Source: an uncultured Zetaproteobacteria bacterium | GTDB taxonomy: Bacteria > Pseudomonadota > Zetaproteobacteria > Mariprofundales > Mariprofundaceae | Assembly (NCBI GenBank): GCA_913056285.1 | Contig: CAJXNE010000001.1 | Coordinates: 1 to 41,909, forward strand | Direction: 5' to 3' | Length of the DNA stretch: 41,909 nucleotides | Shown: positions 12,212 through 15,627 of the stretch, in pieces | Layout of the letters: every line of letters starts with the position of its first letter | How positions within the stretch are numbered: the stretch's first letter is position 1 | The notes under the pieces: generated by a model | Told to the model about the DNA's origin: nothing | The model's input: the letters and a program-made list of their open reading frames with translations, nothing else | The model's database searches: none | Program-made: the position numbers and the translations under genes

Positions 12212-12307
12212 GGGGGCAAGCCTGCAAATGCATGCTATCTATTCTGTGATCAGCGCCACAATCCAGATTAAACAGACACCGGTCGCCATTGTCGTTACGC
12301 TTTGCCG

Positions 12308-13297
12308 ATGACCGGACAGAATCACACTGCCTCATTTTATGACCTCGGCCCTGAACAGGTGTTGCAGGCGGTCGAAAGCCTGGGTTTTGCCTGCAATGGC
12401 CATCAAATGGGGCTGAATTCCTATGAAAATCGCGTCTATCAAATTGGCATCGACAATGACGAATCCCTTGTTGCCAAGTTCTATCGGCCCAAACGCTGGA
12501 GCGATGCCGCTATTCTGGAGGAACATGTTTTTACACTGGAGCTGGCAGAATTGGATATACCGGCAGTGCCACCGCTGCTTATTGATGGCAACAGCCTGTT
12601 TCATTTCGGCGCACACCGTTTTGCCCTTTACCCCTTAAAAGCCGGGCGCTCGCCTGATCTGGAATGCAAAACGCATCTGCAACAATTAGGGCGCTTTATC
12701 GGGCGCATTCATGCGCTGGGGTCGACACAGGATTTTCAATATCGCCCCGAATTGAATGTGCAAACCTTCGGCGATGACGCCTATGAATACTTGATGGAGA
12801 ACGATTTTATTCCTCCGGAACTGGAAAAAGCCTATGAAACACTGGCGGAGGATTTGCTCGATGCGATTGAAGAACGATTCGCCAATATCGACCCACAACT
12901 GATTCGTCTGCACGGAGACGGGCACCCCGGCAATATCCTGTGGAAACACGATGCGCCCTATATCCTCGATTTCGATGATGCCCGCATGGGACCAGCCGTG
13001 CAGGATTTATGGATGTTTCTTTCGGGTGAACACCAGCATCAGTTAACGACGCTCGATACGCTGCTCACCGCCTACAGCCAGTTCTACGATTTCGATTGTC
13101 GTGAATTATCGCTGATCGAGCCGCTACGCACCCTGCGCATGATGCATCACGCCGCCTGGCTGGCCGAGCGCTGGGACGATCCCGCTTTTAAACGCGCTTT
13201 CCCGTGGTTCAATACGCAGCAATATTGGGAAGAACATATTCTCACACTAAAAGAACAGGCCGCGGCCATGCAGGAAGAGCCACTGCAATGGTTATAA
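12308..13297 (+). CDS. srkA: stress response Ser/Thr kinase (YihE/RdoA)
   Basis: LNSYENRVY, KFYRP, RLHGDGHPGN, DFDD and DPAFKRAFPWF motifs. Confidence 0.94.
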   Translation: MTGQNHTASFYDLGPEQVLQAVESLGFACNGHQMGLNSYENRVYQIGIDNDESLVAKFYRPKRWSDAAILEEHVFTLELAELDIPAVPPLLIDGNSLFHFGAHRFALYPLKAGRSPDLECKTHLQQLGRFIGRIHALGSTQDFQYRPELNVQTFGDDAYEYLMENDFIPPELEKAYETLAEDLLDAIEERFANIDPQLIRLHGDGHPGNILWKHDAPYILDFDDARMGPAVQDLWMFLSGEHQHQLTTLDTLLTAYSQFYDFDCRELSLIEPLRTLRMMHHAAWLAERWDDPAFKRAFPWFNTQQYWEEHILTLKEQAAAMQEEPLQWL

Positions 13298-14839
13298 TCA
13301 GTATTCGTAAGCAAGAACTACTTTCAGCAAACCTTGATCGCTGGCAGAGGTAAGCCCGAACAGATAACCCGCTTCATAGGTGAGCCCGCTGCGTAGCTTG
13401 CCGATCACAACCGGCCCAATCTGGTGGGATTGCAGAGATGGTAATTTGGTATTTCCCACTTCCCCGAGCGAGCCATACAATTCAATTGCCGGTTCCAGCC
13501 ATCGTTTCCAGCGCCATTTGCTTTGCCATGCATATCCCAGCGTAGTGTTTTGCGTGGCCAGCGCCCCCAACTCTTTTTTGAAAATCAGGTTGGCGGTATG
13601 GATGATTCGTCCATATTGTTTTTCCAGCAATAGTTTAAATTCCAGCGCATCCGCTTTGTTCAACGATTTTTGTGGCACGATATATTCAAAATACAGTCCT
13701 GCATCCAGCCAGCGCTCGCCCTGCCCGAACAACTGATAAATATTTTCCCACTTCAAGCCCTGATAAGTGAATTTATTCCCCGGCCTTTTTCTGAAATCGC
13801 CATAAATGGCCGTCATCCAGCGATCAGTCACACCATACTCCAGTTCAAACTGGTGACGGGCGCTGGTGTTTTTGGTCAGGTCGGCATCGATACTGTAATC
13901 AAGCGAATATTCCAGTTCCACCTCACCTTGTTCGACAATGGGCGAGTATACTTTTTTGGCCTGTGCATCCGTTGCCTGCATGGTCATGCCCAGGCAGACC
14001 AGCAACACAGCTGCAACCGTGCCGGCTGGTCGCACCTGTGATTTTTTCTGATAGCGAATAGCTGCCCAGGTTAGTAATAGTACGCTCACAAATGTAAACG
14101 CCTGCATGCCGCTGGGTCTGTCATCATAGCCCATTAACGCATGCAACAGTTGACCTATGATTCCATGTTCCGAAATAACACCGGAGCTATTCCAGATCGG
14201 CTGGCCCCATGCAGGCAATACATCAATCATCACCAGCCACGCCACGCCCTGCGATGCCATGCCAGCGGATAATAGTACAATTAAACATGTCACAACCAAA
14301 AACACATAGCGAAGAGGCACATGGACCAGGCTCTGATACAGACCCAGCGCGACCACAATACCCAGCAGCATGCCTGCCGCACCGCCTGCCAGCATGCCCG
14401 AAGCGCCAGCATTTCCTGTCGCAGCTACGCCATACAGGAATAGCACAACTTCCGAACCTTCCCTCGCAACAGCCAGACCCACAACGATTGAGAGAACAAA
14501 TTTTGCGGTGCCCTGCCCCTCCACATCCTGACATGTCTGGCGAATTTTATGAGACATTTCACGCCCATGTTTGCCCATCCAGATTGCTGTCCAGGACATC
14601 ATTAACGATGCTGCAATCAGCACACCCGCATTGAATACTTCCTGTCCCATGCCCTGCATCGAGCCGGATAATAAATCTGCGAATAATGCAACCAGAATCG
14701 CTACAATCAGACCGCCGGTGATACCACCATAAATCCAGCGGATTTGAATATTCGCCTCGCGCGCGGCCGCCGTTGCAATACCGACAACCAGCATCGCCTC
14801 CAGCACTTCACGAAATACAATAATTAAAGTGGAAATCAT
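13298..14839 (-). CDS. FTR1/EfeU-family iron permease fused to a C-terminal predicted outer-membrane beta-barrel
   Basis: REVLE and REGSE iron-permease motifs, hydrophobic helices and LMGYDDRPS in the first ~260 aa; then a signal-like linker and ~219 aa of amphipathic strands ending LAYEY. Confidence 0.88.
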   Translation of the reverse strand: MISTLIIVFREVLEAMLVVGIATAAAREANIQIRWIYGGITGGLIVAILVALFADLLSGSMQGMGQEVFNAGVLIAASLMMSWTAIWMGKHGREMSHKIRQTCQDVEGQGTAKFVLSIVVGLAVAREGSEVVLFLYGVAATGNAGASGMLAGGAAGMLLGIVVALGLYQSLVHVPLRYVFLVVTCLIVLLSAGMASQGVAWLVMIDVLPAWGQPIWNSSGVISEHGIIGQLLHALMGYDDRPSGMQAFTFVSVLLLTWAAIRYQKKSQVRPAGTVAAVLLVCLGMTMQATDAQAKKVYSPIVEQGEVELEYSLDYSIDADLTKNTSARHQFELEYGVTDRWMTAIYGDFRKRPGNKFTYQGLKWENIYQLFGQGERWLDAGLYFEYIVPQKSLNKADALEFKLLLEKQYGRIIHTANLIFKKELGALATQNTTLGYAWQSKWRWKRWLEPAIELYGSLGEVGNTKLPSLQSHQIGPVVIGKLRSGLTYEAGYLFGLTSASDQGLLKVVLAYEY

Positions 14840-14848
14840 ATCGGCATC

Positions 14849-15205
14849 CTACTTCGCCACAATACGGCCCTGCGCCGTATCAGGATTGAACTCGCCAAAA
14901 AACGGATATTCACCCGCATCGAGTGCGGGCAGAAAAATCACGATTTTACTGTTGCCTGCGACAACTTTTTCCCGATTCAGTTCATAACTCTCAAATTCCT
15001 CCGGGGTGGCATCGTGATTGAGCACAATCAGACGATGCTTTTGCCCCGCCGCCACCTCGATCCGGTCTGGCATAAACACATGGTTTTCAATCACCACGGT
15101 ATATTCGGCTGTACTTCCCATAGCCGGATAAGTTATGCCTATCGTAACAAGCATGGCTATTAGACTCATTTTTAAGATATTGTTTGATTTCATTGTTCGA
15201 TTCAT
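14849..15205 (-). CDS. periplasmic cupredoxin-domain protein (FtrB / EfeO N-terminal-like)
   Basis: Signal peptide; TPEEFESYELNREKVV and YPFFGEFNP motifs. AGGAG RBS at 15211-15215 favours ATG 15205 (or 15208). Confidence 0.88.
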   Translation of the reverse strand: MNRTMKSNNILKMSLIAMLVTIGITYPAMGSTAEYTVVIENHVFMPDRIEVAAGQKHRLIVLNHDATPEEFESYELNREKVVAGNSKIVIFLPALDAGEYPFFGEFNPDTAQGRIVAK

Positions 15206-15220
15206 CATCACTCCTGTGGC

Positions 15221-15239
15221 GCAAATGATAATCGTTATC
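15221..15239. promoter_or_regulatory. Fur box 1
   Basis: GCAAATGATAATCGTTATC, 16/19 match to GATAATGATAATCATTATC, directly upstream of the iron-uptake genes. Confidence 0.88.
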
Positions 15240-15255
15240 ATATTCAGGAGTCAAC

Positions 15256-15274
15256 AAGAATGATAATCGTTATC
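15256..15274. promoter_or_regulatory. Fur box 2
   Basis: AAGAATGATAATCGTTATC, 16/19 match; shares an identical 16-bp core with box 1, 35 bp away. Confidence 0.85.
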
Positions 15275-15337
15275 GAACACACTGCCGAGTGAAGTAACAC
15301 TGCACACTGAGCACTGCACAAGCCAATCTGATTTGGC

Positions 15338-15349
15338 TAGAATACGCCC
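15338..15349 (+). promoter_or_regulatory. putative -10 element of slyX (candidate leaderless)
   Basis: TAGAAT-acgccc-ATG with no SD sequence. Confidence 0.55.
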
Positions 15350-15553
15350 ATGCAAGATCGACTAATCGAACTGGAAACTAAAATTTCGTATCAGGATCAC
15401 ACCATTGGCGAACTCAATAGTGTGGTAATCCGCCAACAGCAACAAATCGACCAACTGGAAAAGAACCTTAAACGATTGCAAGCGCATCTGAAGCAGTCCG
15501 ACAATCATGACATTGCCCGCCCTGACGAAGAAGTCCCGCCGCCGCACTATTAA
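15350..15553 (+). CDS. slyX: SlyX family protein
   Basis: RLIELETKISYQDHTIGELN and C-terminal PPPHY. Confidence 0.95.
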   Translation: MQDRLIELETKISYQDHTIGELNSVVIRQQQQIDQLEKNLKRLQAHLKQSDNHDIARPDEEVPPPHY

Positions 15554-15627
15554 TCCAGAGGCAGTGATGTTTCCGTTATACGGCAAGCGCGGCTATAGTT
15601 GCCGCATCTTGCTGGCAGGTGATAAAC

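What the first reader, a model, noticed from the sequence alone, without database searches (positions are those of the whole stretch)
13298..15274. Fur-controlled iron uptake system with an inner-membrane permease / outer-membrane barrel fusion joined by an internal signal peptide (candidate polyprotein)
Seen: one 513-aa ORF with no internal stop. The first ~260 aa are a complete FTR1 permease (REVLE, REGSE). It continues RYQKKSQVRPAG-TVAAVLLVCLGM-TMQATDAQA|KKVYSP, which has the n-, h- and c-regions of a Sec signal peptide with an A-x-A site (last Ala is aa 294, codon 13960-13958). The remaining 219 aa have alternating amphipathic strands, aromatic residues and a terminal LAYEY resembling a BAM beta-signal. 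Established: FTR1-family permeases are inner-membrane proteins with a cytoplasmic C-terminus in the yeast Ftr1p model, and beta-barrels are exported before outer-membrane insertion. Inference: one translation product supplies both membranes. The linker would act as an extra TM segment, and signal peptidase I would release a porin in 1:1 ratio with the permease. With the upstream cupredoxin this gives a compact two-gene porin/periplasmic/permease iron path. No FtrA/P19, FtrD or EfeB partner is adjacent. I saw no SD before the internal GTG at 14035.
Basis: partly seen in the sequence, partly recalled or inferred. Interest (0 to 1): 0.88.

Follow-up and report, generated by a model that had tools for sequence, protein, structure and literature searches.

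The report
One gene supplying two bacterial membranes
One conserved gene encodes an FTR1-family iron permease, then a built-in stretch shaped like a secretion signal, then a predicted 12-stranded outer-membrane channel; signal peptidase likely cuts the chain so that one translation would supply both membranes of an iron-uptake route.

Summary
Confirmed. The 513-aa ORF (14839-13298, minus strand) is a real, conserved fusion: 103 of 120 listed homologs are full-length FTR1+barrel proteins, and 43 of 71 named genome loci are fused, across four phyla. Residues 295-513 are predicted as a 12-strand barrel (pLDDT 97) of the FapF/COG4313 fold. The linker is only 16-26% conserved, yet keeps basic, hydrophobic and [AVS]-x-A parts in the register of the stand-alone barrels' signal peptides (96 of 104; shuffles 27). 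Internal ribosome-binding sites are at background level. Distant proteobacteria carry the same three parts as separate genes: cupredoxin, FTR1, barrel. Two Fur-like boxes lie upstream. Best reading: a polyprotein cut by signal peptidase I into an inner-membrane permease and an outer-membrane metal channel. Cleavage, location and substrate are untested. Signal-peptidase cutting of polytopic proteins is known (LtaS; FbcH recalled), but my searches found no permease-barrel case. This scan noted the same fusion in four other genomes.

The parts
15256..15274 (.). Upstream Fur-box-like site (3 mismatches to the recalled E. coli consensus)
   Evidence: one of two matches in the window, 0 of 100 shuffles reach two; best site at 5 or fewer mismatches upstream of 20 of 37 fused loci, against 1.5% in shuffles
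15221..15239 (.). Downstream Fur-box-like site, overlapping a sigma-70-like -10 hexamer
   Evidence: (best promoter-like match TTGACT-18-TATCAT, 15254-15225; 8 such matches found against 3.8 expected, so weak on its own)
14849..15205 (-). FtrB-like periplasmic cupredoxin with an N-terminal signal-peptide-like leader; probable start 15205 or 15208
   Evidence: Pfam Cupredoxin_1 E 2.4e-26; only solved-structure hit is FtrB 8VUK, E 4.5e-17; directly upstream in 38 of 38 fused loci with enough flank
14054..14839 (-). FTR1-family permease, aa 1-262, seven predicted helices, two REXXE motifs
   Evidence: two REXXE in 100 of 104 fused proteins; alternating K+R loop bias
13958..14056 (-). Internal Sec-type signal peptide: n-region 14056-14021, h-region 14020-13979, c-region with A-Q-A 13978-13958; predicted signal peptidase I cut after Ala294
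13922..13957 (-). Conserved mature N-terminus KKVYSPIVEQGE, likely the plug that folds into the barrel lumen
   Evidence: V-Y-S-P nearly invariant; residues 1-12 non-strand in the model; model aligns to 4RL8 from residue 1; plug role inferred from Pput2725 (PMC4493636)
13298..13957 (-). Predicted 12-strand outer-membrane beta-barrel, aa 295-513, ending in an aromatic residue
   Evidence: pLDDT 97.4; FapF Z 21.8, rmsd 2.8, 212 aligned, and Pput2725 Z 21.1, rmsd 3.0, 215 aligned; last residue F in 88 of 104, Y in 2

Best explanation
The gene encodes one chain, FTR1 permease + signal-peptide-like linker + predicted 12-strand barrel, which signal peptidase I likely cuts after Ala294, so that the permease would stay in the inner membrane and the freed barrel would likely be folded by BAM into the outer membrane as a channel for iron or a similar divalent metal. 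Steps: (1) shown: one ORF, conserved as a fusion; (2) inferred: under iron shortage Fur leaves the two boxes and the cupredoxin and the fusion are made; (3) inferred from charge bias: seven permease helices insert N-out/C-in, and the linker helix then threads the barrel into the periplasm; (4) inferred from motif conservation: LepB cuts at A-Q-A, leaving the h-region as an eighth helix on the permease (or trimmed later); (5) predicted: the freed KKVYSP end folds into the lumen as a plug; (6) inferred from gene context: iron passes barrel, FtrB-like cupredoxin, permease. The fusion arose by loss of the stop between two neighbouring genes of a cupredoxin-FTR1-barrel operon.
For: Conserved fusion. 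Barrel fold among outer-membrane proteins. [AVS]-x-A in register in 96 of 104 (shuffle mean 27, max 41) and in 23 of 23 below 60% identity (mean 6.7, max 14), while linker identity is only 0.16-0.26 against 0.52 in both domains. h-region, n-charge and h-to-site distance match stand-alone signal peptides. A matrix trained on 120 stand-alone signal peptides ranks the linker site first in 109 of 124 fused proteins, and in 5 more the top site was the linker A-x-A that my anchor had misplaced. No conserved internal Shine-Dalgarno: 24% against 26% in control windows and 86% at true starts, n=49. Only about 7 residues separate the helix from the mature N-terminus and 19 from strand 1, against about 150 helical residues in the trans-envelope MlaD (PMC10665443). 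Split operon in the same order in 17 of 34 out-of-family regions. Signal peptidase I and a BamA-family gene are in the genome. Lumen-facing positions conserved at 80% or more include 7 Glu and 1 Asp against 2 Lys. In L069 an Nramp-family gene follows cupredoxin and barrel in place of FTR1.
Against: No cleavage product, fractionation or expression data. The linker helix is as hydrophobic as true permease helices (best 19-mer 1.81 against 1.71-2.16), so hydrophobicity does not separate a signal from a permanent helix. The matrix scored sites inside the permease (mostly near aa 58 and 200) above the linker site in 10 of 124 proteins, so a good motif is not proof of cutting. 8 of 104 lack [AVS]-x-A, though 7 of these 8 have other small residues at -1 and -3. 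7 of 49 fused loci have a strong internal Shine-Dalgarno plus start codon. The nearest solved uptake channel, Pput2725, is thought to carry hydrophobic solutes (PMC4493636). Many barrels have no FTR1 nearby (25 of 71; 23 of 42). The cupredoxin lacks the FtrB copper ligands D118/H121 (G and N here). Lumen assignment came from residue alternation and was ambiguous for three strands.
Confidence: 0.7

Rival explanations
1. Cleavage and two-membrane delivery are right, but the barrel does not carry iron. It admits copper for the cupredoxin, another metal, or an organic iron ligand or hydrophobic solute.
For: COG4313 channels of the same fold are linked to hydrophobic substrates (PMC4493636, passages). 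Stand-alone barrels lie beside cation-efflux and MerR-family genes (L058) or TonB-dependent receptors (L082, L089, L091). In some loci the barrel is next to the cupredoxin without FTR1 (L069, L076, L077, L101; L137, L141, L149).
Against: Fur-like boxes are kept upstream, including in L039 where only the barrel remains. The conserved lumen is acidic. The commonest recognised partner is FTR1.
Confidence: 0.16
2. The chain is not cut. The linker is a permanent eighth helix, and the barrel stays tied to the permease, either in the inner membrane or at a point where the two membranes touch, giving a direct iron conduit.
For: The helix is as hydrophobic as the permease helices. A single chain with an inner-membrane anchor and an outer-membrane barrel has precedent in Veillonella MlaD (PMC10665443). 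Fusion would be easy to rationalise as channelling.
Against: The tether is 7-19 residues, far short of a periplasm of about 24 nm as measured in V. parvula (PMC10665443). A-x-A is conserved well above shuffles, which a permanent helix would not need. The same mature N-terminus follows ordinary signal peptides in stand-alone homologs. The linker length varies from 47 to 63 residues between Q246 and the mature start.
Confidence: 0.07
3. The working barrel is made from an internal start codon as an ordinary precursor. The read-through tail on the permease is incidental and is trimmed or degraded.
For: 44 of 49 fused loci have some in-frame ATG/GTG/TTG 20-40 codons before the site, and 7 of 49 have a strong Shine-Dalgarno. 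Stand-alone barrels themselves often have weak ones (46% at -5 kcal/mol or better), so the test has limited power.
Against: Frequency and strength equal control windows elsewhere in the gene (24% against 26%). Start positions are not aligned between loci, and 5 of 49 have no start codon there. The window's only candidate scores -0.1. A useless in-frame fusion would not be expected to persist across phyla.
Confidence: 0.06
4. The fusion is a sequencing or assembly error, or a one-off stop-codon loss in this genome.
For: The genome is an 84%-complete assembly, and split operons exist.
Against: 103 full-length fused clusters, 15 same-genus genomes, a named strain record, Kordiimonas marina A6E486 (L085), and run contigs without indels over the linker.
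Confidence: 0.01

Closest known systems
FtrABCD / FtrAPBCD ferrous-iron transporters (Brucella, Bordetella, Burkholderia, Rubrivivax; PMC11966278, passages and section 5 read)
   Same: FtrB-type cupredoxin (hit to 8VUK) directly before an FTR1/FtrC permease with two REXXE motifs; the three Glu iron ligands of FtrB align with Glu here.
   Different: No FtrA/P19 or FtrD in the operon, and P19 was not found in the 84%-complete genome. FtrB D118/H121 are G/N. An outer-membrane-type barrel is fused to the permease; the passages I read name no such part.
EfeUOB
   Same: FTR1-family permease with a cupredoxin-fold periplasmic partner under a Fur-like box.
   Different: EfeU model score is below cut-off (129 against 255). 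No Dyp peroxidase found in the genome. The cupredoxin is a single domain without the M75 part.
COG4313 (Phenol_MetA_deg) channels such as Pput2725, and FapF (PMC4493636, passages read)
   Same: 12-strand barrel with a short N-terminal segment before strand 1; best structural matches (Z 21.1 and 21.8); ESM Atlas neighbours carry PF13557.
   Different: About 10% identity; no Pfam hit for this protein and only weak PF13557 hits in 8 of 84 homologs; about 50 residues shorter; conserved acidic lumen; metal-transport gene context.
Staphylococcus aureus LtaS (PMC10865820, PMC12260438, passages read)
   Same: Type I signal peptidase cuts a polytopic membrane protein at an internal Ala site and releases its C-terminal domain.
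   Different: The released part is a soluble catalytic domain of the same enzyme in a one-membrane cell, not a second membrane protein bound for another membrane.
Bradyrhizobium japonicum FbcH (Thony-Meyer 1991, PMID 1647023; only the title seen, in a reference list; content recalled)
   Same: One gene gives two membrane proteins (cytochromes b and c1) through an internal signal-like segment and a signal-peptidase-type site (recalled).
   Different: Both products stay in the inner membrane, in one complex. Here the second product is predicted to go to the outer membrane.
Veillonella parvula MlaD (PMC10665443, abstract and passages read)
   Same: One ORF with an inner-membrane helix and a C-terminal outer-membrane barrel.
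   Different: MlaD is proposed to stay whole and span the periplasm with about 150 helical residues. Here there is no spacer, and a conserved cleavage motif instead.

Membership tests
FTR1/OFeT iron permease family | Pfam PF03239 above cut-off | tested here: met
   105 bits against 25.3
FTR1/OFeT iron permease family | Seven helices and two REXXE motifs | tested here: met
FTR1/OFeT iron permease family | Iron transport activity | not testable with these tools
   needs an uptake assay
FtrABCD system | FtrB cupredoxin next to FtrC permease | tested here: met
FtrABCD system | FtrA/P19 and FtrD in the operon | tested here: not met
   neighbours are srkA-like kinase and argH; PF10634 not found in the 84%-complete genome; FtrD not searched genome-wide
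FtrABCD system | FtrB copper ligands D118/H121 | tested here: not met
   G and N at the aligned places (numbering inferred from the alignment). The paper reports D118G in its Cluster III
EfeUOB system | EfeU equivalog score and EfeB Dyp peroxidase partner | tested here: not met
   none adjacent
Outer-membrane beta-barrel (BAM substrate) | Even-stranded amphipathic barrel with aromatic C-terminus | tested here: met
   12 strands, pLDDT 97; top structural matches are outer-membrane barrels; F or Y last in 90 of 104
Outer-membrane beta-barrel (BAM substrate) | Outer-membrane location | not testable with these tools
   needs fractionation
COG4313 / PF13557 | 12-strand barrel with N-terminal plug | tested here: met
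   Z 21.1, rmsd 3.0, 215 aligned to 4RL8; plug position inferred, coordinates not inspected
COG4313 / PF13557 | Sequence membership of PF13557 | tested here: inconclusive
   no hit for this protein; 8 of 84 homologs hit weakly, best E 2.3e-4; Atlas neighbours carry it in 24-85% of members
Signal peptidase I substrate (internal site; LtaS/FbcH-like) | n/h/c regions with small residues at -1 and -3, helix oriented in-to-out | tested here: met
   SignalP itself was not available
Signal peptidase I substrate (internal site; LtaS/FbcH-like) | Demonstrated LepB-dependent cleavage | not testable with these tools
   needs proteomics or a tagged construct
Trans-envelope bridge (MlaD-long type) | Periplasm-spanning spacer between anchor and barrel | tested here: not met
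   7-19 residues; the Q246-to-mature-start distance is at most 63 residues in all 104
Fur regulon | Fur-box-like site over the promoter and Fur in the genome | tested here: met
   binding and iron response not tested

The most novel reading that the evidence does not exclude
A natural bacterial polyprotein in which signal peptidase I splits one translation product into an inner-membrane transporter and an outer-membrane channel, handing a co-translationally inserted chain over to the BAM route. Its barrel defines a large unnamed family (3112 clusters at 50% identity) of Fur-linked channels that are the missing outer-membrane entry step for Ftr-type ferrous-iron uptake, including in iron-oxidising Zetaproteobacteria.
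Probability: 0.55. Interest if true: 0.88.

Novelty: new variant of a known kind. Interest (0 to 1): 0.78.

Why it matters
Bacteria normally couple envelope partners through operons, and inner- and outer-membrane proteins take different targeting routes. A conserved single ORF that feeds both would show that an outer-membrane barrel can be exported from the tail of a polytopic protein and released by signal peptidase, which fixes synthesis at 1:1 and makes a simple test case for Sec-to-BAM handover. Separately, the gene context assigns a likely metal-uptake role to a large unannotated barrel family and offers a candidate for how iron crosses the outer membrane in Ftr-type systems. Databases hide the barrel by naming these 510-525-aa proteins 'FTR1 family protein' or 'high-affinity iron transporter'.

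Tried and rejected
Pfam and NCBIfam gave no hit for the barrel. A profile search of solved structures gave only a chance hit, E 0.33. A search for longer forms (561-2000 aa) found none among 7996 scored candidates, which is weak evidence. The full-length AlphaFold model (pTM 0.43; linker 267-293 below pLDDT 50) says nothing on how the two domains sit, so I used it only for secondary structure. No RNA holder was listed among public runs, so expression was not examined. The careful barrel tree did not finish; only the quick tree was read. Trees need 11 (barrel) or 6 (FTR1) changes of the fused label. All fused FTR1 rows lie on one starred branch with 9 split rows, and the 12 rows outside it are all split. 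One old fusion with several fissions is therefore plausible, but repeated fusion is not excluded and the roots are midpoint only. Rows left out of the trees: barrels matching under 170 profile positions (3 of the 71 loci plus L100) and FTR1 matching under 200. The first motif window (-1 to +1: 87 of 102 strict, 95 relaxed) was shifted to -2 to 0 after I saw the data. The L050 'split' was rejected as a true fission, since the frame changes at an 8-A run and the barrel has no good start. No Fur-like box at 3 or fewer mismatches in L085 (5 mismatches). The FbcH paper is not held in the library. Literature searches (listings only) showed no description of this fusion. Subscription papers and all supplements were unseen, and gene tables in supplements could mention it.
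Full report
Observation. The window holds one 513-aa ORF at 14839-13298 (minus strand) with no internal stop. The N-terminal part is an FTR1 permease (Pfam E 5.6e-30; EfeU model below cut-off), with REVLE and REGSE. The last 219 aa match no Pfam or NCBIfam family. Upstream are a cupredoxin gene and two Fur-box-like sites at 15221-15239 and 15256-15274, the only two in the window at up to 3 mismatches from the recalled consensus. Homolog names and record titles place the genome among the Mariprofundaceae.

The fusion is real and widespread. Searching with the barrel part among proteins of 282-898 aa gave 127 hits. Of the 120 listed, 103 are 495 aa or longer and carry PF03239, down to about 40% identity in the barrel. 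The whole ORF is open in 15 of 36 same-genus genomes. Of 71 named genome loci, 43 are fused, 3 have FTR1 adjacent as a separate ORF, and 25 have no FTR1 in the fetched DNA; some of the 25 are cut by contig ends. By record title, fused loci come from Zeta-, Gamma-, Beta- and Alphaproteobacteria (including the named strain Kordiimonas marina A6E486), Omnitrophota, Planctomycetota and Krumholzibacteriota; most are metagenome bins whose labels I did not check. The cupredoxin lies directly upstream in 38 of 38 fused loci with enough flank, and a Fur-like site within 5 mismatches precedes 20 of 37 (1.5% in shuffles). Contigs of three public runs cover the linker without indels (two samples at most, one possibly the source). 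The fusion is a minority form of the family as a whole. The barrel profile finds 3112 clusters at 50% identity, and 19 of the best 150 are of fused length. In a draw of 401 genomes, none of the 38 hit genomes outside the window's family had a fused-length open frame.

The C-terminal part is an outer-membrane-type barrel. AlphaFold2 on an 84-sequence alignment gives 12 strands after a 12-residue non-strand N-terminus (pLDDT 97.4, pTM 0.90). The best matches are FapF (Foldseek E 1.9e-7; Z 21.8, rmsd 2.8, 212 aligned) and the COG4313 channel Pput2725 (Z 21.1, rmsd 3.0, 215 aligned), followed by KdgM/NanC porins and autotransporter barrels. In Pput2725 the first 14 or so residues plug the lumen from the periplasmic side (PMC4493636, passages). 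The nearly invariant V-Y-S-P start here fits such a plug; I did not inspect coordinates. The last residue is F in 88 and Y in 2 of 104. By residue alternation, lumen-facing positions conserved at 80% or more include 7 Glu and 1 Asp against 2 Lys, with three strands ambiguous.

The linker is the barrel's own signal peptide. Stand-alone homologs begin with an ordinary signal peptide ending in A-x-A just before the same mature start. In fused proteins the n-, h- and c-regions are only 16, 20 and 26% identical on average, against 52% in both domains, yet [AVS]-x-A ends in register in 96 of 104 (2000 shuffles: mean 27, max 41), in 23 of 23 below 60% identity and in 9 of 9 below 50%. The window of positions was adjusted once, which gave 87 of 102 strict and 95 relaxed. 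Hydrophobicity, uncharged span, n-charge and h-to-site distance match the stand-alone leaders. A matrix trained on 120 of 125 stand-alone leaders ranks the linker site first along the whole protein in 109 of 124 fused proteins (3 more had no anchor). In 5 of the 15 misses the top site was the linker A-x-A that my anchor misplaced; in 10 a site inside the permease scored higher. Mean K+R per loop alternates 2.3, 0.1, 5.0, 0.1, 2.2, 1.3, 4.0, which puts the n-region in the cytoplasm and the cut site in the periplasm, where signal peptidase I cuts exported proteins at A-x-A (PMC13067283, passage). The genome has a signal peptidase I gene and a BamA-family match.

Alternatives to cleavage. Internal initiation: in 49 distinct fused loci, a start codon with a Shine-Dalgarno duplex of -5 kcal/mol or better occurs in 24% of linkers, 26% of 980 control windows and 86% of true starts. 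The window's GTG scores -0.1. Seven loci do have a strong site, so dual use in some lineages is open. An uncut bridge: only 7 residues separate the helix from the mature start and 19 from strand 1, whereas the trans-envelope MlaD of Veillonella uses about 150 helical residues for a 24-nm periplasm (PMC10665443, abstract and passages). Against my reading, the linker helix is as hydrophobic as true permease helices, and no cleavage product has been seen.

Origin. I fetched 40 non-fused hits (34 outside the family, 6 inside) and added two plasmid-collection loci. FTR1 lies directly upstream of the barrel on the same strand in 19 of these 42 (17 of the 34, none of the 6, both plasmid loci; L103 and L140 are one record), and the cupredoxin precedes it in 17 of the 19. 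The order is the same as in the fusion. On the quick FTR1 tree all 41 fused rows sit on one starred branch with 9 split rows, and the 12 rows outside are split. On the barrel tree, stand-alone rows nest among fused ones. L039 is the window's own locus, syntenic on both sides, with cupredoxin and FTR1 missing; there the barrel sits directly behind the two Fur-like boxes, with a leader ending QASDAEA. This suggests the internal leader works as an ordinary signal peptide once placed at an N-terminus. L096 is a clean split with a new ATG; L050 is a frameshift at an 8-A run. One old fusion followed by fissions fits best, but repeated fusion is not excluded.

Function. The cupredoxin's only solved relative is FtrB (8VUK, E 4.5e-17). 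The three Glu iron ligands align, while D118/H121 are G/N; D118G is described for one FtrB cluster (PMC11966278, passages and section 5). P19 and Dyp peroxidase were not found in this 84%-complete genome. The system is thus a minimal Ftr module with an added barrel. In L069 an Nramp gene follows cupredoxin and barrel, and some lone barrels sit by cation-efflux or TonB-receptor genes. This supports metal uptake broadly, but not iron specifically; most lone barrels examined had unrelated neighbours.

Comparison and novelty. Signal peptidase I cutting a polytopic protein is known: LtaS is cut between Ala217 and Ser218 (PMC10865820 and PMC12260438, passages). B. japonicum cytochromes b and c1 come from one gene (title seen in a reference list; mechanism recalled). 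In neither is the second product an outer-membrane protein. Searches (listings only), and passages of PMC9360617, PMC13067283 and PMC1698941, showed no account of an FTR1-barrel fusion or of this barrel family. Subscription papers and supplements were not seen. After forming my reading I found four earlier AI notes of this scan on other genomes with the same conclusion. They are not independent evidence and did not change my scores.

Verdict. Observation confirmed; interpretation supported but untested at the bench. I put about 0.85 on signal-peptidase release of an outer-membrane barrel from this chain, and 0.7 on the full model with iron or a similar divalent metal as substrate. New variant of a known kind; interest 0.78.

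Noticed in passing
L039:4780-5657 (same locus as window 13298-15600): A Mariprofundus relative has lost cupredoxin and FTR1 at this locus. The barrel follows the two Fur-like boxes directly, starts MNR like the window's cupredoxin, and keeps a leader resembling the internal one.
   Followed up: partly
L069:4585-6887: Cupredoxin, barrel and an Nramp-family gene in a row, with no FTR1 in the locus: the barrel may pair with a different divalent-metal importer.
   Followed up: partly
L050:1930-2160: FTR1 and barrel are in different frames across an 8-A run, and the barrel has no good start: assembly error, recent frameshift or slippage site.
   Followed up: partly
window 13291-15302: Contigs in runs X2 and X3 (one sample) join these positions with 110 other letters between: a related strain appears to lack the whole cupredoxin-fusion unit.
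   Followed up: no
G000:C46:8992-10205: A second, unfused FTR1 paralog (283 aa, 39% identical) lies directly behind a Fur-family regulator gene.
   Followed up: no
L082, L089, L091 (downstream of the barrel): Stand-alone barrels followed on the same strand by a TonB-dependent receptor and a DUF6580 gene.
   Followed up: no
L103:5908-6657 (NZ_CP044976.1): In a Hydrogenophaga plasmid the barrel gene behind FTR1 is broken by a TAG and annotated as two hypothetical proteins; the unit occurs twice in the record.
   Followed up: no
L054, L061, L070, L078, L090, L052, L056 (linker region): Seven fused loci have a strong Shine-Dalgarno-like match before an in-frame start codon 20-40 codons ahead of the cut site, so an extra internal start may operate in some lineages.
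   Followed up: partly
P0044 (295 aa): A predicted protein with part of the cupredoxin running directly into the signal peptide and barrel; may be a deletion product or an assembly chimera.
   Followed up: no
window 13297/13298: The stop codons of the convergent kinase gene (12302-13297, +) and the fusion gene abut with no spacer, and no terminator-like site was listed there.
   Followed up: no
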